From: Magallana gigas
Taxonomy: Eukaryota
Length of the DNA stretch: 64,000 nt
Direction: 5' to 3'
Assembly (NCBI RefSeq): GCF_963853765.1
Contig: NC_088858.1
Location: 7,006,001 to 7,070,000 of the forward strand
Shown here: in pieces, positions 9,001-23,484 of the stretch
Layout of the letters: each line of letters starts with the position of its first letter
Position numbering within the stretch: the stretch's first letter is position 1
Program-made: the position numbers

Positions 9001-12000
9001 ATTTGAATGGATTAGATTTGTATAATATCTTCATTTGATATTCATTCGCATTCAATATTTTCTACTTTTTCTTTTATATTTTCTATTTGTATTTTTTTTA
9101 TTTGTACATGTGTATTCGATATTTTGCAACTGTAGGAGACTCATTTATACCAAACCTCAATTATTTACTACGGCCGCTGGATTTCTAAATTAAACCAGTT
9201 TTCTGTTTTCCACAAGATAAAAGTAAAAACACAAGATAAAAGCTAGGCTTTAGTACATGTATACGCCGTCATCCTTATATAAGTACATTATTGTAGTTAA
9301 CCACGTTAAAAAAAATTGTTGAGAGAGATGCATTATAGTAAAACATATACTACAATGTGCGGTTCTTATGTCATAAAAAGCCGTAAAACCATCACACGAG
9401 CTAATAATAATGTCAATACCCCCAAGAAATGATATCCAATTAATAGACCATCTTAGTGTTATTAATGTCCAGTCATATCCAGCAACGCAATGTTTGATTA
9501 AATACATAACGGACATAGTTTATTGCGAGTATTGTTATTGCTCTGATGAATCAGTGAAATTGCTCGTTAAAAGTAGCGCTTGGATTTCCGGACTACATCC
9601 GATTTTGGCACCTGGGAAGTGTATATATAGGGGACGGAAAATTCACACACTAGACTGGACAGATCTCAACCAAGGTAAGAGGGTCTCAAAAAGTTATCCA
9701 ATATCTACAACCGTTCTTAAAGGGTAACTCTCATCTGTATAACCATGTATAATTGTGTTAATCAAAAACTTTTCTTTGTTGTAAAATCAGATGTTCATTA
9801 CGTTAACAATTTACAGATTTTACGCACTTATTTTAAAGCTATAATAGAAATTATTAAAAACTTGGAATTCTATGGTCTTGAATACATATCGTGCAATATT
9901 AAGTTGCTTTCAATGGTTTCTTCCTCTATCAGCATGAAGTCGTTTCTGTTTCTACTGAGCGTCGCGTGCTCCTGTTATGGACTTCACATCCTGCCGTGTG
10001 AGCCTGGAGACCCGGGGCCCCTGGGATGTGATGCCTACCAGAGAAACGGTGGCCGCCTAGACGTAGGTGGTGCCGGAGGTGGAGCCATGAATTCCATCGG
10101 GTTCGATCAGAATCAGAACGCCGGTTTTGGAAACGGACTTGGTTCCAATTTCCTGGAGCCAAGGCTCGAATTTGGAATGGACGGAGGAGTAGTGAACGAC
10201 TTTAACAATGGATTTGGTCAAGATGTCGGACTGGTCGATACTGGATTCGACAACGGCTTCCAAAATGACTTATCAGGGCTCAGTCTTGACTCCAATATCG
10301 GACCTGGGGGATTTGATCCCAGTCTCGGGGCTGGAGGATTTGACGCCGGTGTCGGCGGTGGATTTGACGCTAGCTTTGATGTGAACTCCGGTTTAGATGG
10401 GCCTTTCATTGGAGGGGGAGGTGGTGGTGGTTTTGATGGGTTCGACAACGGACTTGGAGGGAATATTGGCGGGCCATCCATCGGAGGAAACTTTGGCGGC
10501 GGGAAAGGTGGAATAATCGGGGGACCCTCGGTGGGGGGATTCAATGAAGGGTTTGGATTTGATGGAAACCTCGGTGGGGCAGACTTTGGACAGGACATAG
10601 GCTTTGGTGGTGCTGGTATTGGTAAAGGCAAAGGATTCGGAGGTGCCATCGGCAGTGGTGCAGGATTTGGAAAAGGAAATGGTATCGGTGGTGCCATCGG
10701 TGGTGGTGCAGGATTTGGAAAAGGAAAAGGTTTCGATGGTGGTATCGGCGGTAATGCAGGATTCGGAAAAGGCAAAGGTTTCGGTGGTGGCATTGCTGGT
10801 GGTGCAAAATTTGAAAAAGGGAAAGGCTTCGGTGGAGGTATCGGTGGTGGGAAGTTCGGTGGATCCCTAGGACCATCTTACCCTAAAAGAAAAGGCTTTA
10901 ATATCGACAGAAGATATAATAAAGGCTTCGGAGGTGGTTCTGGATGGGGGTCAAGAGGAAAGGGAATTATAGGGGGATCTCACGGAATCATGGGAGGAAA
11001 AGGCATTGGTGGAGGTAAAGGTATTATTGGAGGTATTGGAATCGGGGGCGGTTTCGGATTTAGAGGCGGACTCGGCAAAGGATTCGGTAAAAACAGAAGA
11101 ATGAACTACGGACCACAGTTGGGACATTCTTTGAAACCACGCATTGGAAAACGGCCAATTTTCCGTCATAGACGTCCAAACATATTCCCGATAAAAAGAC
11201 CTTACCCCAGCTTTGGAATTCGAAGTCCAGTCTCAATGCTACCAAAATCATACGGAAGAGTTTCTAATTATCCAAAGAATATGCCAATTAAGCCGATCCG
11301 ACGAATGGCGTCCGGTTACTAATCCAAGTCAGGTAAGACGCGACTCTCCGCAATTAACATGTGTAAAGATAATCTTGATACCTGTATATAGTCTCCAATT
11401 CTATATCAAGCTTTGTCATTATAGAACTATTTTTCTAATGTACATACATGTACTAAAACTAATTTTGAAACCTATTTTACAGAAATCAACCGAAGCTGTT
11501 CCAATAAGCAAATTCCCAAGTTGTGTGACTTTGCCGGGAGAAATCTGCACGAGAGTATACCAATAGCTGGAGGAGGCTTCTACAATAGTTCTTTGTTTTG
11601 TACCTTTTTGTTTTTATTTATTCAATAAACTTATTCAAATACCTTTTGTCTTCTCTATGATGTATATACAGGGGAAATATCCGGAAGTTTTAACACAAAG
11701 TGCGGCAATAATTACGCAAATCAAACGTATTCACTGCGTCAGGACTAGTAGGAAGTTATTAGGACATATGGATAGATGCTAATTGTACATGAAGCTAGAG
11801 ACCTATAGTGACATTCCACAGGGCGCCTCCTGAGTGTACAGCGCCGAGAGCGCCACTCGAGTAATCTTCTGAGACTTCCTTATTTAAATTATTTCTTCCG
11901 ACAAAAGAAGGTTCAGAACATGGATAAATTTGTAAAACAAGCAACAGACTTCCCTTAACAAAGTTCACAAACAATAAGTTTGACCCCAGTAATGTATCTG

Positions 12001-21000: not shown

Positions 21001-23484
21001 ACAAATGTAAAAATCAATGCCATGTCAATTAGAATATATTGACCTCAAATGCCATCTTCTTATTCAAAGAAAAAAAATCAACACGAAATGGTCATCATAA
21101 AAAAGCATGTTACAAATCAAACATTACTTATGCACACCTGTATCGATGCTCAGCAATTCTGTCTCTTATGAATAAGTATGAAAGAAGACCTTCCTTATTT
21201 TATAGACACACGGTCCTGATTTAGAAGGAAACATTTATAACGTAGATTTAATGAGACACAGGTGGGCCTCAAGGTGTAGTTCTATCTGATTTACTTTTCA
21301 TGTTTGACGAGTTTGTTCTCGAAAGGCATCTTAAAATTCGGCCTTCCTCTTAAAACTCATATTTGATATCGTATATTGGTGATAAATATGCGTACCATAT
21401 TTGATTCTGTTGCATATACATGTTTTATTTACCTCCCAGAATAGTTACTATTAAACAGGTCCTATATAAGGCCATGGTGCCAATGCTTAGTATCTATTGG
21501 TAAATAGTTCACCTAGCTGAAGAGAGGTAAGGTACCAGTACACAGAAAATAAATTTTAATATTAATATGCAAATCATACATAAATATTTTGAATTTATAA
21601 ATTTGTTTTCATTGTTACAAAAGAGTAACAGAATTTTGCAGAATACTTATATCTTTTTTGAATTACTGAAGATTTTCAACGTGTTATTACATGCATTTCA
21701 AGGATTTTATATCTTGTTACAGATGTTGTCGATAGTAGTATCCCTCTTGTTCCTATCCTCGACTCTTTGTCAGCGCCAATGCGACCCCCGGGATCCAAAC
21801 TGCGTTGACGCATTCCAGGTAGCTGGTGACAATTTTGGCGGGGCAATCGCTGCAGAAATCCCCTATAACAATGTAGCCGACGCTGGTTTCCCCAATGCAC
21901 CCAATACATTTGACACTGTTGCCGTGGTAGGATTCGACAACTTTGATTCTGGCCCTGGAATGCCTCAGGTCCAAGGCATTGAAGTCGTAGGACAGCCATT
22001 TGACGTTCAGTCCGACTTCGGACCTGTCCCGAGAGGAGTTAATATCATTGAAACTAGAGCATTCGATAACGATGAAAACCAAGCAATAATCATCGATACC
22101 AGGGGACCAGTGGACCAGAGACCGATGAACAATGATCTTCAGAACTATCAGCCAAAAATGGACAAGAAAATGGATATTTATCCCGGACAGATGGACAAGA
22201 AAATGGATATTTATCCCGGACAGATGGACAAGAAAATGGACATGTACCCTGGAAAAATCGACAAGAAAATGGATGTCTACCCTGCTAACTTCGATAAATA
22301 TCCCGTGGATAAGTACCCTATGGACAAATATCCAGTTGATAAGTATCCAGTCGATAAATATCCCATGGATAAATACCCCGTTGACAAATATCCCATGGAT
22401 AAATACCCAGTCGACAAATATCCTGTGGACAAATATCCAGTGGACAAATATCCAGTAGATAAATACCCAGTCGATAAATATCCAGTTGATAAATATCCGG
22501 TGGACAAGTTCCCCACTGATAAGTATCCCATGGACAAGTACCCCGTCGACAAGTATCCAGTTGACAAGTATCCGGCTGATAAATATCCAGTTGACAAGTA
22601 TCCAGTTGATAAATATCCGATGGACAAGTACCCTGTTGACAAGTATCCAGTTGACAAATACCCAGTTGACAAATATCCAGTTGATAAATATCCAGTTGAC
22701 AAATACCTAGTTGACAAATATCCAGTTGATAAATATCCAGTTGATAAATATCCAGTTGACAAATATCCAATGGACAAACAAAAGCCAAAATACGACAACA
22801 CATTAGAAAAATACCCTGGTAAGTACGACAAATTCCAGAAATACGACAAATACCCAGGAAAGACACAAGATATCTATCCAGGCAAACTCGACAAGGGATT
22901 CGATAACTATCAAATGGACAAGAAAGGGAACGCATATCCTTCTAAATTAGACAAGACCTACGAACTTTACCCTACCAAAGGATACGACAAGGTCGCAGTT
23001 AGATTCGATGAGAGCGACAAGTACCCTATCGTCGACAAACTCATGAACATTTACCCCACCCAAGCAGACAAAATGATCGATAAATACCAACCCGTCGACA
23101 AGTACCAGCCAAAGTATGAGACCAGGCGGCCAGAGAAATTCCAGAAGGGATCTTACGACAAGTATGTACCTAAGCCAAAATACAACAAAAAATCTTACGA
23201 CACTGGTAAATATAGCAATAAGCGTTACCAGAAGAAGTATGATTACAGCTCTAAGTACCCCAGGAAGTACGATTATCCTGAGCCGACCTCCCGTCCCGTG
23301 TACAGGAGACCCACGGTGACCGAGCCCAGCGTCAACCAACAGGAGTACTACGCCACCCAGCCTCCAGTGAACAGGAGGAGAAACGCACGCAGAATGCAGA
23401 GGCGCCGCCCCTCCAGAAGAAGGTCATCCGGGTACTAAACTCACCTCTTCACATTAGAGATCTCCACCATATTTAGTAAGTTTA

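What the first reader, a model, noticed from the sequence alone, without database searches (positions are those of the whole stretch)
9934..23438. Two unrelated-looking repeat proteins share an N-terminal two-Cys motif and a C-terminal RR..SGY
Seen: the Gly-rich protein's mature region starts LHILP-CEPGDPGPLG-C-DAYQ and ends RRMASGY. The DKYPV protein starts QRQ-CDPRDPN-CVDAFQ and ends RRRSSGY. The consensus is C-[DE]-P-x-D-P-x(1-4)-C-x(0-1)-D-A-[FY]-Q. These are the only Cys in either mature chain. Both genes also have a candidate intron shortly after the stop. Inference: they are paralogs whose interiors were replaced by different repeat expansions, with a small disulfide loop or inter-chain linker conserved as an assembly domain.
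Basis: partly seen in the sequence, partly recalled or inferred. Interest (0 to 1): 0.68.

Follow-up and report, generated by a model that had tools for sequence, protein, structure and literature searches.

The report
Oyster matrix-protein paralogs with shared ends
Two neighbouring Pacific-oyster genes for secreted, disordered repeat proteins share a short two-cysteine start and a basic tail ending in tyrosine, and they look like ordinary fast-evolving structural matrix genes of the kind already known from pearl-oyster shells.

Summary
Window 9934-11322 (+) encodes a 462-aa Gly-rich protein (A) and 21723-23438 (+) a 571-aa protein with 32 DKYPV units (B). The motif pattern and "SGY-stop" occur only at these two ORFs in all six frames. 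The window is Magallana (Crassostrea) gigas or a very close relative.

A's motif and tail are almost invariant in two Saccostrea orthologs, while its Gly/Lys repeats gain and lose units. An unnamed protein, P0157, carries A's N-terminal module on an unrelated interior. This supports conserved ends around replaceable repeats.

The A-B similarity itself is only moderately above chance. Profiles built without B do not retrieve B.

Most of the supporting context is cluster-wide, not specific to A and B. At least ten secreted low-complexity genes share UTR introns hugging a single coding exon, a predicted N-terminal Gln and a C-terminal Tyr. This resembles the shematrin/KRMP RnKmY signature.

An annotated isoform of B splices out the RR..SGY tail. 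Disulfide or assembly roles are untested. I rate it a new member of a known kind, of moderate interest.

The parts
9622..9674 (+). Gene A: TATA-like box (tatatata, 9622-9629) and a short non-coding exon 1 ending at the donor caaccaag|gtaaga
   Evidence: Read from the sequence. No transcript data were available.
9675..9932 (+). Gene A: candidate 5'UTR intron, whose acceptor ...cctctatcag lies 1 nt before the ATG
   Evidence: A pyrimidine-rich acceptor 0-6 nt before the ATG is found in 8 of 9 cluster genes, against 67 of 2648 ATGs in the whole window.
9934..11322 (+). Gene A coding exon: the whole 462-aa ORF (P0001) plus the stop codon. Gly 32.9%, pI 9.8.
   Evidence: Orthologs are annotated in Saccostrea echinata and S. 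cucullata. The protein atlas holds this sequence letter for letter.
9934..9981 (+). Gene A: predicted signal peptide (16 aa)
   Evidence: A hydrophobic leader ending in CYG. The cleavage site was judged by eye; no predictor was run.
9982..10041 (+). Gene A: N-terminal two-Cys module LHILPCEPGDPGPLGCDAYQ
   Evidence: Pattern match at 9997-10041. 19 of 20 columns are invariant in the Saccostrea orthologs. P0157 carries the same module.
10606..10850 (+). Gene A: 48-nt (16-aa) tandem repeat, 5.1 copies, GFGKGKGF type
   Evidence: Tandem Repeats Finder, 80% matches. This region holds most of the gaps against the orthologs.
11299..11322 (+). Gene A: C-terminal RRMASGY plus the stop codon
   Evidence: The orthologs end in RRIGSGY.
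11333..11482 (+). Gene A: candidate 3'UTR intron. GTAAGA lies 10 nt after the stop, the acceptor is ttttacag, and AATAAA follows at 11624.
   Evidence: Six cluster ORFs have GTAAG[AT] within about 40 nt after the stop, against 5 of the other 194 ORFs.
21463..21526 (+). Gene B: TATA-like box (tatataa) and a short non-coding exon 1, with its donor at about 21527 (agagag|gtaagg)
   Evidence: Read from the sequence. An alternative GTAAAT donor at 21500 cannot be excluded.
21527..21722 (+). Gene B: candidate 5'UTR intron, whose acceptor ttgttacag lies directly before the ATG
21723..23438 (+). Gene B coding exon: the 571-aa ORF (P0002) plus the stop codon. Lys 13.7%, Asp 13.1%, Pro 12.3%, Tyr 11.9%.
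   Evidence: Residues 350-548 are identical (199 of 199) to UniRef A0A8W8IC30, Magallana gigas. The protein atlas holds the 571-aa sequence letter for letter.
21780..21818 (+). Gene B: N-terminal two-Cys motif CDPRDPNCVDAFQ, preceded by QRQ
22158..22274 (+). Gene B: 33-nt (11-aa) repeat MDKKMDIYPGQ, 3.5 copies
   Evidence: Tandem Repeats Finder, 90% matches.
22293..22778 (+). Gene B: 15-nt (5-aa) DKYPV repeat, 32.4 copies
   Evidence: Tandem Repeats Finder. Pfam Extensin_1 matches this stretch at 120.2 bits; I read that as a compositional match.
23415..23438 (+). Gene B: C-terminal RRRSSGY plus the stop codon
23367..23457 (+). Gene B: alternative 91-nt intron (GTGAAC...AG) that removes the Arg-rich tail and the stop codon in the public model P0003
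   Evidence: Deduced by comparing the tail of P0003 with the window. I saw no transcript evidence.
23458..23475 (+). Gene B: 18-nt micro-exon (RSPPYL) used in P0003
23476..23621 (+). Gene B: 3' intron (GTAAGT...ttgacag) containing a (TC)25 microsatellite at 23488-23538
   Evidence: The junction is used exactly in P0003.
23622..23712 (+). Gene B exon 3: 3'UTR in the long-ORF reading. In the P0003 reading it encodes AERCGQLPDSIPNCPHDF-stop. AATAAA lies at 23707.
   Evidence: P0003 has Tyr where the window has the final Phe.

Best explanation
A and B are two members of a tandem cluster of Pacific-oyster genes. The cluster encodes secreted, intrinsically disordered, low-complexity structural proteins of the kind found in bivalve shell matrix, periostracum, ligament or cement.

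Each gene has its whole coding sequence in one exon. A 5'UTR intron ends at the ATG, and a short 3'UTR intron starts just after the stop.

Both proteins have the same layout:
- a signal peptide;
- a short two-Cys, Pro/Asp-rich module at the mature N-terminus;
- an acidic Asp/Asn/Gly/Phe segment;
- a lineage-specific tandem-repeat interior;
- a basic Arg/Lys/Pro tail ending in RR-x-x-SGY.

Shown: the ends of A are held almost constant between oyster genera while its repeats change in number. The same N-terminal module also sits on an unrelated interior in another protein.

Inferred: A and B descend from one ancestral gene. Their interiors diverged by replication slippage and unequal exchange of repeats.

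Inferred mechanism:
- The chains assemble outside the cell through attraction between the acidic front halves and the basic rear halves.
- They are then fixed covalently through the two N-terminal Cys (disulfide or Cys-quinone links) and through oxidised Tyr. B has 68 Tyr, and both proteins end in Tyr.
- The basic tail ending in Tyr plays the same unknown role as the RnKmY tail of shematrins and KRMPs.
For: - Observation: the motif and SGY-stop are unique to these two ORFs.
- Species: 199 of 199 residues are identical to a Magallana gigas UniRef entry.
- Conservation of A's ends against its interior: Cys motif 19 of 20 invariant, last 23 aa 17 of 23, repeat block 59 of 109 with 67 gapped columns.
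- Module on a different interior: P0157.
- A-B similarity: BLASTP E = 0.001; shuffle tests give 38 of 5000 for 30 aa and 1 of 5000 for 60 aa.
- Charge gradient from acidic to basic in A, B and the neighbour at 25677-26261.
- Shared gene structure. B's 3' junction is confirmed by the P0003 model.
- Terminal Tyr in 8 cluster ORFs out of the 13 ORFs ending in Tyr among 200.
- Tandem repeats at DNA level.
- No predicted fold: mean pLDDT 35.4 with a 3-sequence alignment. No Pfam domain in A and no PDB relative.
- Literature, passages read: shematrins and KRMPs carry an RnKmY C-terminal signature (PMC3896809). Shematrin genes sit in tandem clusters (PMC4759782). Repeat-domain families evolve by slippage and by motif gain, loss and shuffling (PMC4897951).
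Against: - Profiles built from A's family alone do not recover B. B's N-terminus ranks 54th of 684 listed hits among 1116 ORFs (E = 63, 0.1 bits), although the alignment falls on the right residues. B's tail is not listed at all.
- A generic scan of A's N-terminus over 2870 six-frame windows does not place B in the top 12.
- The 5' flanks and the third exons show no DNA similarity (13.8% of 500 shuffles reach the observed score).
- The gene structure, charge polarity and terminal Tyr are cluster-wide. They support common ancestry of the cluster but not a special A-B link.
- The Cys spacing differs: 9 residues in A against 6 in B.
- No ortholog of B was found, so B's ends may not be conserved.
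- The annotated isoform P0003 lacks B's RR..SGY tail.
- I saw no expression, proteomic or localisation data for either gene. The shell, adhesive or ligament role is inferred from composition, neighbours and one automatic name.
Confidence: 0.6

Rival explanations
1. The A-B resemblance is chance or convergence. The two genes belong to the same broad cluster, but their shared motif and SGY end do not reflect a specific common ancestor. Short Pro/Asp/Cys-rich N-termini and basic tails ending in Tyr are simply what this class of secreted protein tends to have.
For: - Profiles built without B rank B 54th of 684 listed hits at the N-terminus and do not list its tail.
- The similarity beyond the motif is not significant: 1438 of 5000 shuffles reach it.
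- A terminal Tyr after basic residues is common in the cluster, so sharing S-G before it is only mildly improbable.
- The Cys loops differ in length.
- There is no non-coding similarity.
Against: - The pattern occurs at the same place, 3-5 residues after the leader, in two same-strand genes 11.8 kb apart, and nowhere else in six frames.
- Only 1 of 5000 shuffles reaches the 60-aa score.
- Both ends match at once.
- A's motif and tail are under strong constraint. P0157 shows that the module is a transferable or retained unit.
Confidence: 0.22
2. The RR..SGY end is a processing signal and not an assembly element. A dibasic-specific convertase would cut after RR/RRR in the secretory pathway and release a 4-5-residue peptide (MASGY or SSGY). 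Alternatively, in B the whole tail is optional because splicing removes it.
For: - Both tails have RR or RRR 4-5 residues before the end, and the A orthologs keep RR-I-G-S-G-Y.
- The public model P0003 splices out B's last 23 codons and reads a different 24-aa tail with two Cys.
Against: - Neither site has Arg at P4, which the classical furin consensus requires (this consensus is recalled and was not tested).
- The residues after RR are themselves conserved in A's orthologs, which is unexpected for a discarded stub.
- The Saccostrea gene models and the atlas records keep the SGY end.
- I saw no transcript evidence for or against the P0003 isoform.
Confidence: 0.12
3. The shared ends were spread between otherwise unrelated neighbouring genes by gene conversion or segmental copying of short terminal pieces. 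They were not retained from a common ancestor while the interiors were replaced.
For: - The genes lie in a dense tandem cluster on the same strand.
- P0157 shows the N-terminal module joined to a different body.
Against: - The whole coding sequence is one exon, so exon shuffling is not available.
- The A-B identity in the ends is low (39% over the aligned N-terminal 73 aa) and the DNA does not align. Any transfer would therefore be old and could not be told apart from common descent here.
Confidence: 0.06

Closest known systems
Shematrins (Pinctada glycine-rich shell framework proteins)
   Same: - They are secreted and Gly-rich, and their repeats vary among paralogs.
- They have a basic C-terminus ending in Tyr (the RKKKY/RRKKY/RRRKY signature; PMC3896809, passages).
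- Their genes are arranged in tandem (PMC4759782, passages).
[quoted passage not shown]
   Different: - A is Gly-rich but poor in Tyr, and its unit is GFGKGKGF, not GnY. B is not Gly-rich at all.
- In A and B the tails have three non-basic residues between RR and the final Tyr.
- As far as I recall, shematrins have no N-terminal two-Cys module.
- No sequence comparison with a shematrin could be run here.
- PMC4759782 states that shematrin homologs are absent from the C. gigas genome. A 2026 paper uses the automatic name 'shematrin-like protein 1/2' for C. hongkongensis genes (PMC13465682, passages).
KRMPs (lysine-rich matrix proteins of pearl oysters)
   Same: They have a modular layout with a basic part and a repeat part, a short basic C-terminal motif ending in Tyr (RKYKY, RPKKY, RRKY), and lineage-specific expansions (PMC3896809; PMC4897951).
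   Different: KRMPs are about 10 kDa and have a Lys/Trp domain right after the signal peptide and a Gly/Tyr block. A and B have neither.
Mussel adhesive plaque matrix protein (foot protein 1), the source of the automatic name of B's UniRef entry
   Same: It has many tandem short units rich in Lys, Tyr and Pro (B: 13.7%, 11.9% and 12.3%). The implied chemistry is oxidation of Tyr to DOPA followed by cross-linking (recalled).
   Different: - B's unit is a charge-neutral pentapeptide (DKYPV) and not a basic decapeptide (recalled).
- No alignment with the mussel protein was made.
- The name is automatic and oysters do not make a byssus.
Plant extensins (Pfam PF02095 Extensin_1)
   Same: B scores 120.2 bits against a cutoff of 105. 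Both are periodic Pro/Tyr/Lys/Val structural proteins. Extensins are made insoluble by Tyr cross-links (recalled), which is a useful working analogy.
   Different: The match covers only the DKYPV array and is compositional. Extensins are a plant cell-wall family with Ser-Pro4 units that B lacks. I do not take the match as homology.
High-molecular-weight glutenins and spider silks (repetitive cores with short Cys-bearing terminal domains)
   Same: A long disordered repeat core is flanked by short conserved non-repetitive ends, and the few Cys in those ends link chains into polymers (recalled; analogy only).
   Different: They are unrelated in sequence and taxon. A and B have Cys at one end only in the long-ORF form, and no evidence of inter-chain links exists.
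Vertebrate SCPP gene cluster (enamel, bone, milk and saliva proteins)
   Same: A tandem cluster of fast-diverging secreted disordered proteins in which gene structure and the ends outlast sequence similarity (recalled). Here, 8 of 9 genes have a 5'UTR intron ending at the ATG, and 6 cluster ORFs have a donor just after the stop.
   Different: It has a different phylum, exon plan and motifs (no SxE phosphorylation motif was looked for). It is an evolutionary analogy only.

Membership tests
Shematrin family | Gly/Tyr-rich GnY repeat domains, each followed by a hydrophobic residue (as described in PMC3896809) | tested here: not met
   A has 32.9% Gly, but Tyr is not among its six commonest residues (9 Tyr in the 40-residue blocks) and its unit is GFGKGKGF. 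B has DKYPV units and little Gly.
Shematrin family | C-terminal signature RKKKY / RRKKY / RRRKY / IRRKK / PRKKY | tested here: not met
   A ends in RRMASGY and B in RRRSSGY. Both have basic residues and a terminal Tyr, but three non-basic residues lie between them. The neighbour at 25677-26261 ends in RRRGRRRPRY, which is closer to the signature.
Shematrin family | Tandem arrangement of paralogs in the genome | tested here: met
   A and B lie 11.8 kb apart on the same strand within a cluster of at least 10 secreted low-complexity genes.
Shematrin family | Detectable sequence homology to Pinctada shematrins | not tested
   No tool gave me a shematrin sequence, and sequences from memory are not accepted. 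The protein searches returned no named shematrin.
KRMP family | Lys/Trp-rich domain directly after the signal peptide, with a Gly/Tyr block before the C-terminus | tested here: not met
   The mature N-termini are LHILPCEPGDPG... and QRQCDPRDPN..., followed by acidic segments.
Mussel foot protein 1 (adhesive plaque matrix protein) | Long array of short tandem units rich in Lys, Tyr and Pro | tested here: inconclusive
   B has 32.4 copies of a 5-aa unit with Lys, Tyr and Pro at 12-14% each. However, each unit also has Asp, so the array is net neutral. The mussel decapeptide is recalled and was not compared.
Mussel foot protein 1 (adhesive plaque matrix protein) | Tyr converted to DOPA and Pro hydroxylated in the mature protein | not testable with these tools
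   This needs protein chemistry.
Pfam Extensin_1 (PF02095) | Score above the curated cutoff | tested here: met
   120.2 bits against a cutoff of 105, over B residues 229-374. The match is confined to the DKYPV array. I treat it as compositional and do not file B as an extensin.
N-terminal two-Cys module family (proposed here; not a described family) | A signal peptide followed within 3-5 residues by C-[DE]-P-x-[DY]-P-x(1-4)-C-x(0-1)-D-x-[FY] | tested here: met
N-terminal two-Cys module family (proposed here; not a described family) | Statistically supported homology of B's module to the A-type module | tested here: inconclusive
   The pairwise tests are positive (E = 0.001; 38 of 5000 and 1 of 5000 shuffles). 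A profile built from the A-type sequences only gives B E = 63 and rank 54 of 684.
N-terminal two-Cys module family (proposed here; not a described family) | The two Cys form a disulfide bond, either within a chain or between chains | not testable with these tools
   The structure model has pLDDT below 50 over the motif and no coordinates are returned. This needs non-reducing gels or disulfide mapping.

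The most novel reading that the evidence does not exclude
All ten or more secreted low-complexity genes in this 64-kb window descend from one ancestral three-part gene (a 5'UTR exon, a single coding exon and a 3'UTR exon).

That ancestral product began with a blocked N-terminus: pyroglutamate from Gln, or a Cys-closed loop in A and B. It ended in a basic tail with a terminal Tyr.

On this reading the oyster cluster is a molluscan counterpart of the vertebrate SCPP cluster. 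It would also be the long-sought relative of the pearl-oyster shematrin and KRMP genes, which a 2016 genome comparison reported as absent from C. gigas. A and B would be the two members that still show the ancestral ends in recognisable form.
Probability: 0.25. Interest if true: 0.65.

Novelty: new member of a known kind. Interest (0 to 1): 0.4.

Why it matters
Bivalve shell-matrix and related structural proteins evolve so fast that families can rarely be traced between genera. This blocks comparison of how different shells are built.

- Short conserved end modules and a conserved exon plan offer handles that outlast the repeats. Examples here are the introns hugging the coding exon, the N-terminal Gln or Cys loop, and the basic tail ending in Tyr. 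These handles could be used to trace such families across oysters and pearl oysters.
- If the two N-terminal Cys and the terminal Tyr are cross-linking points, they are direct and testable targets for learning how the disordered chains become an insoluble matrix.
- The practical value is modest. The pattern fits what is already described for shematrins and KRMPs, and no function was shown here.

Tried and rejected
- **Coding potential of the third exons.** A's exon 3 in frame 0 reads a 27-aa peptide with two Cys, and B's reads the P0003 tail. Their similarity (C-x-x-L-P-x-x-I) is at chance level: 957 of 5000 shuffles reach it. The DNA of the two exons does not align above chance either (score 18 against 15.0 +/- 2.3; 13.8% of 500 shuffles). 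I rejected this as evidence of a shared coding exon.
- **DNA alignment of promoters, first exons and introns of A, B and the gene at 25677.** No convincing conserved block appeared.
- **Protein alignment of the front halves of A, B and the 25677 gene.** It shows only compositional likeness.
- **Profiles from A's family without B.** B was not retrieved.
- **Pfam.** There was no hit for A or for 8 of the 9 neighbours. The exception is a thaumatin exon. For B there was only the compositional Extensin_1 match.
- **PDB sequence search.** It gave 0 hits for the N-terminal profile and 0 for B.
- **Protein atlas.** The best feature scores were 0.78 (B, 'Prisilkin-39-like' and 'Pro-resilin' clusters) and 0.77 (A). 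Both are below the 0.9 level at which a hit is more than a lead.
- **Structure prediction of A with 3 sequences.** Mean pLDDT was 35.4 and no residue reached 70. This fits disorder, but the alignment is too shallow to prove it.
- **phmmer of B against 1.84 billion representatives.** There were 2347 hits at E <= 0.001, but only the best 150 were shown. Of those, 149 match the repeat region and one (P0003) is real. A weaker hit to the N-terminus only would have been hidden.
- **Word-based search with B.** There were 4126 candidates and none at E <= 0.001.
- **Literature.**
  - Motif strings from A and B gave no relevant paper. The 12 papers (10 listed) for DKYPV permutations were all unrelated, and the 1 paper for the six end motifs was a baculovirus paper.
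  - The accession and LOC numbers gave 0 papers.
  - The key paper on shematrin/KRMP evolution (PMC3627088) is not held.
  - One search was badly framed and gave nothing useful.
- **Complex prediction** was not used. The chains are predicted to be disordered and I make no firm binding claim.
- **Spliced model.** I did not build a joined model of B's alternative isoform. Its exons were read one at a time.

Full report
**What is there**

The window is AT-rich (30-37% GC outside the two repeat genes). It carries two long single-exon ORFs on the + strand.
- Gene A, 9934-11322, gives a 462-aa protein (P0001) with 32.9% Gly and pI 9.8.
- Gene B, 21723-23438, gives a 571-aa protein (P0002) with Lys, Asp, Pro and Tyr each at 12-14% and pI 9.0.

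A starts MKSFLFLLSVACSCYG|LHILPCEPGDPGPLGCDAYQ and ends RRMASGY. B starts MLSIVVSLLFLSSTLC|QRQCDPRDPNCVDAFQ and ends RRRSSGY.

Of the 200 ORFs of at least 60 aa, 2 end in GY, and those are A and B.

Cys positions are 12, 14, 22 and 32 in A, and 16, 20 and 27 in B. 'Two Cys in the mature chain' is therefore true for B only if the leader is cut after C16. I infer that cut from the neighbours (see 'Most of the context is cluster-wide'). No signal-peptide predictor was run.

**Species**

The only real hit of B among 1.84 billion representative proteins is P0003. A second search names it UniRef A0A8W8IC30, 'Adhesive plaque matrix protein-like', Magallana gigas. It is identical to B at 199 of 199 residues over B 350-548. 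The window is therefore Pacific oyster or a very close relative.

The other 149 listed hits all fall on the repeat region. The three I fetched are unrelated repeat proteins. Only 150 of the 2347 hits were shown, so weaker matches to B's N-terminus could be hidden.

**Is the A-B likeness more than chance?**

Moderately.
- BLASTP aligns the two N-termini, leaders included, at E = 0.001.
- With leaders removed, the first 30 residues score 34 against 19.2 +/- 4.2 for shuffles, and 38 of 5000 shuffles reach it.
- The first 60 residues score 49 against 24.6 +/- 4.7, and 1 of 5000 shuffles reaches it.
- The stretch after the motif alone is not significant: 1438 of 5000 shuffles reach it.

Against this:
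- A generic scan of A's N-terminus over 2870 six-frame windows does not put B in the top 12.
- Profiles built from A's family without B rank B's N-terminus 54th of 684 listed hits among 1116 ORFs (E = 63). The alignment does land on CDPRDPNC--VDAFQ. B's tail is not listed at all. These profiles are very narrow because A's module is almost invariant, but the result stands as a negative.
- Non-coding DNA does not align.

**Are the ends conserved modules?**

For A, yes. A profile of the two N-termini (alignment A3) was searched against longer proteins. It returned 5 proteins at E <= 10 among 1196 candidates:
- two unnamed copies of A itself (P0153, which includes intron read-through, and P0154 at 99% identity);
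- annotated orthologs in Saccostrea echinata (P0155, 406 aa) and S. cucullata (P0156, 397 aa);
- an unnamed 303-aa protein, P0157.

In the alignment of A with the two orthologs:
- the Cys module is invariant at 19 of 20 columns;
- the next 89 residues are invariant at 69 of 88 ungapped columns;
- the last 23 residues are invariant at 17 of 23, and both orthologs end in RRIGSGY;
- the Gly/Lys repeat block has 67 gapped columns and 59 of 109 invariant ungapped columns.

P0157 begins ...SG|LHILPCEPGYPGPLGCDQF. It matches A only over the first 54 residues (54% identity, E = 2e-13). It then continues with QFVDP repeats and a Lys/Tyr-rich basic half ending in KYI. This directly shows one N-terminal module on different interiors. 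It also shows that the SGY tail does not always travel with the module.

No B-type ortholog was found in any search, so conservation of B's ends is unknown.

**Repeats and layout**

- A has a 48-nt unit in 5.1 copies (10606-10850).
- B has a 33-nt unit in 3.5 copies (22158-22274) and a 15-nt unit in 32.4 copies (22293-22778).
- A, B and the neighbour at 25677-26261 all run from a net-acidic front to a strongly basic rear.
- A model of A built with 3 sequences has mean pLDDT 35.4 and no residue at 70 or above.
- Pfam finds nothing in A. In B it finds only a compositional Extensin_1 match over the DKYPV array.
- PDB searches are empty, and atlas look-alikes score below 0.8.
- The atlas holds both full-length sequences letter for letter, so models with these ends exist in public data.

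**Gene structure**

Both genes have:
- a TATA-like box;
- a short non-coding first exon ending in ...AG|GTAAG;
- an intron whose acceptor lies 0-1 nt before the ATG;
- a consensus donor 10 nt (A) or 37 nt (B) after the stop, followed by an acceptor and AATAAA.

P0003 also removes 23367-23457. That stretch holds the last 23 codons and the stop. P0003 then reads an 18-nt micro-exon and continues into exon 3. This gives the tail RSPPYLAERCGQLPDSIPNCPHDY in place of VNRRRN...RRRSSGY. The window has Phe where P0003 has the last Tyr.

I saw no transcript data, so I cannot say which form is made. A's third exon also has a two-Cys reading frame, but the likeness to B's is at chance level (957 of 5000 shuffles).

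**Most of the context is cluster-wide**

The window holds at least ten further ORFs with leaders and low-complexity bodies:
- 16392-16760 (+);
- 25677-26261 (+);
- 38894-39259 (-);
- 45521-45796 (-) and 47834-48106 (+), which are paralogs;
- 53728-53994 (+);
- 55362-55883 (-) and 61130-61615 (-), which are paralogs;
- Gly/Tyr-rich exons at 54985-55275 (-) and 61848-62198 (+).

Features shared across the cluster:
- A pyrimidine-rich acceptor lies 0-6 nt before the ATG in 8 of 9 genes by a fixed rule, and in B by eye. The background is 67 of 2648 ATGs.
- GTAAG[AT] starts within about 40 nt after the stop in 11 of 200 ORFs. Six of these are cluster genes (A, B, 45518, 48109, 53997, 54985).
- Thirteen of 200 ORFs end in Tyr, and 8 of those are cluster ORFs. 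Most have Arg, Lys or His just before the Tyr (RRRPRY, NRKHY, RKHHY, RLGYY).
- Nine of the ten leaders are followed by Gln, judged by eye. This is why I place B's cleavage after C16.

These features argue that the whole cluster shares an origin or at least a common design. They cannot be counted as evidence specific to A and B.

**Comparison with what is known**

[quoted passage not shown] They also describe the RKYKY/RPKKY/RRKY ends of KRMPs, summarised as an RnKmY signature.
- Passages of PMC4759782 report five shematrin genes in tandem. They state that shematrin homologs are absent from the C. gigas genome, or else have diverged beyond recognition.
- Passages of PMC4897951 describe repeat-domain families evolving by slippage and by motif gain, loss and shuffling.
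- A 2026 paper uses the automatic names 'shematrin-like protein 1/2' for C. hongkongensis genes (passages).

A and B fit this kind of gene but fail the shematrin and KRMP definitions. They have no GnY repeats, no Lys/Trp domain, and a tail that is not RnKmY. I could not compare them with real shematrin sequences.

Literature searches found no paper on these proteins:
- for DKYPV permutations, 12 papers held a term and the 10 listed were all unrelated;
- for six end motifs, 1 unrelated paper;
- for the accession and LOC numbers, 0 papers.

**How it most likely works (inferred)**

- The proteins are secreted.
- The front is protected or joined by the two Cys.
- The acidic fronts and basic rears attract each other, or attract acidic matrix, chitin and mineral.
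- Tyr is oxidised to cross-link the material. B has 68 Tyr, and both proteins have a terminal Tyr.
- The repeats set the mechanical and spacing properties and drift quickly.

None of these steps was shown here.

**Verdict**

- The 'conserved ends, replaced interiors' idea is supported for A's family and is plausible for the A-B pair.
- The disulfide and assembly role is open.
- This is a new, undescribed member of a known kind of fast-evolving bivalve structural gene, set in a cluster whose shared exon plan and end conventions are the more interesting lead.

**Unchecked**

- No mollusc genome or transcript collection was available.
- The N run at 34166-34302 was left as it is.

Noticed in passing
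window 9600-62200 (whole cluster): The secreted low-complexity genes share an exon plan.
- An acceptor lies 0-6 nt before the ATG in 8 of 9 genes, against 67 of 2648 ATGs overall.
- A GTAAG[AT] donor lies within about 40 nt after the stop in 6 cluster ORFs, against 5 of the other 194 ORFs.
All the 3' junctions sit less than 50 nt from the stop.
   Followed up: partly
window ORF ends at 11322, 16760, 23438, 26261, 45518(-), 48109, 54985(-), 62198: Eight cluster ORFs end in Tyr, usually after basic residues (RRRPRY, NRKHY, RKHHY, RLGYY). They make up 8 of the 13 ORFs ending in Tyr among 200 ORFs. Nine of the ten leaders are followed by Gln, which suggests pyroglutamate N-termini (by eye).
   Followed up: partly
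window 16392-16760 (+): A small gene lies between A and B on the same strand. After the leader ...LAAVTSG it reads QILRCPGCKVMGYVAEDDD and ends ...SRTRLGYY. It therefore also has two Cys at the mature N-terminus, an acidic patch, a basic rear and a terminal Tyr. Its start codon was not located: the only nearby ATG would leave a 23-nt intron, which is too short. A's profiles do not pick it up.
   Followed up: partly
window 25677-26261 (+): A 194-aa secreted Gly/Ser/Phe/Asn-rich protein with no Cys. Its acidic GFD/NNGF-type front resembles the fronts of A and B in composition. Its tail RRRGRRRPRY is the closest in the window to the shematrin RnKmY signature. Pfam finds nothing.
   Followed up: partly
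window 45521-45796 (-) and 47834-48106 (+): A diverging pair of close paralogs. Both have the leader ...AVVLAVLCLTGSVYS|QTI and a Pro-rich rear, and they end in NRKHY and RKHHY. Both have GTAAGT 17 nt after the stop.
   Followed up: no
window 55362-55883 (-) and 61130-61615 (-); also 54985-55275 (-) and 61848-62198 (+): Two paralogs have an acidic (G)FFDD/FYDD block followed by Gly/Met/Phe-rich repeats (GGLMSAGG, GGMGG) and GYGKK units. The composition recalls scallop abductin, the hinge-ligament rubber (recalled, not checked). The coding exon seems to end at a donor (cag|gtattg). Gly/Tyr/Ser-rich ORFs nearby may be their last exons.
   Followed up: no
window 28372-28968 (-): A thaumatin-family exon (Pfam PF00314, E = 1.3e-69, covering profile positions 23-208 of 209) sits among the matrix-type genes.
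   Followed up: no
window 32931-33353 and 34442-35028, flanking the N run 34166-34302: There are minisatellite-like arrays whose every frame is open (TLHADTSTLHADTLTLHDG... and HVMLKYQ...) on both sides of an N run. The N run was left untouched.
   Followed up: no
window 23488-23538: A perfect (TC)25.5 microsatellite lies inside B's 3' intron.
   Followed up: no
window 23622-23678 against P0003: The public isoform P0003 ends ...NCPHDY, where the window encodes ...NCPHDF-stop. This is one difference in 223 residues, so the window and the UniRef entry probably come from different haplotypes or assemblies.
   Followed up: no
window 10218-10877 (-), 21753-22941 (-): Long antisense and off-frame ORFs (up to 317 aa) overlie the repeat arrays of A and B. 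They are by-products of the periodic sequence and not genes.
   Followed up: no
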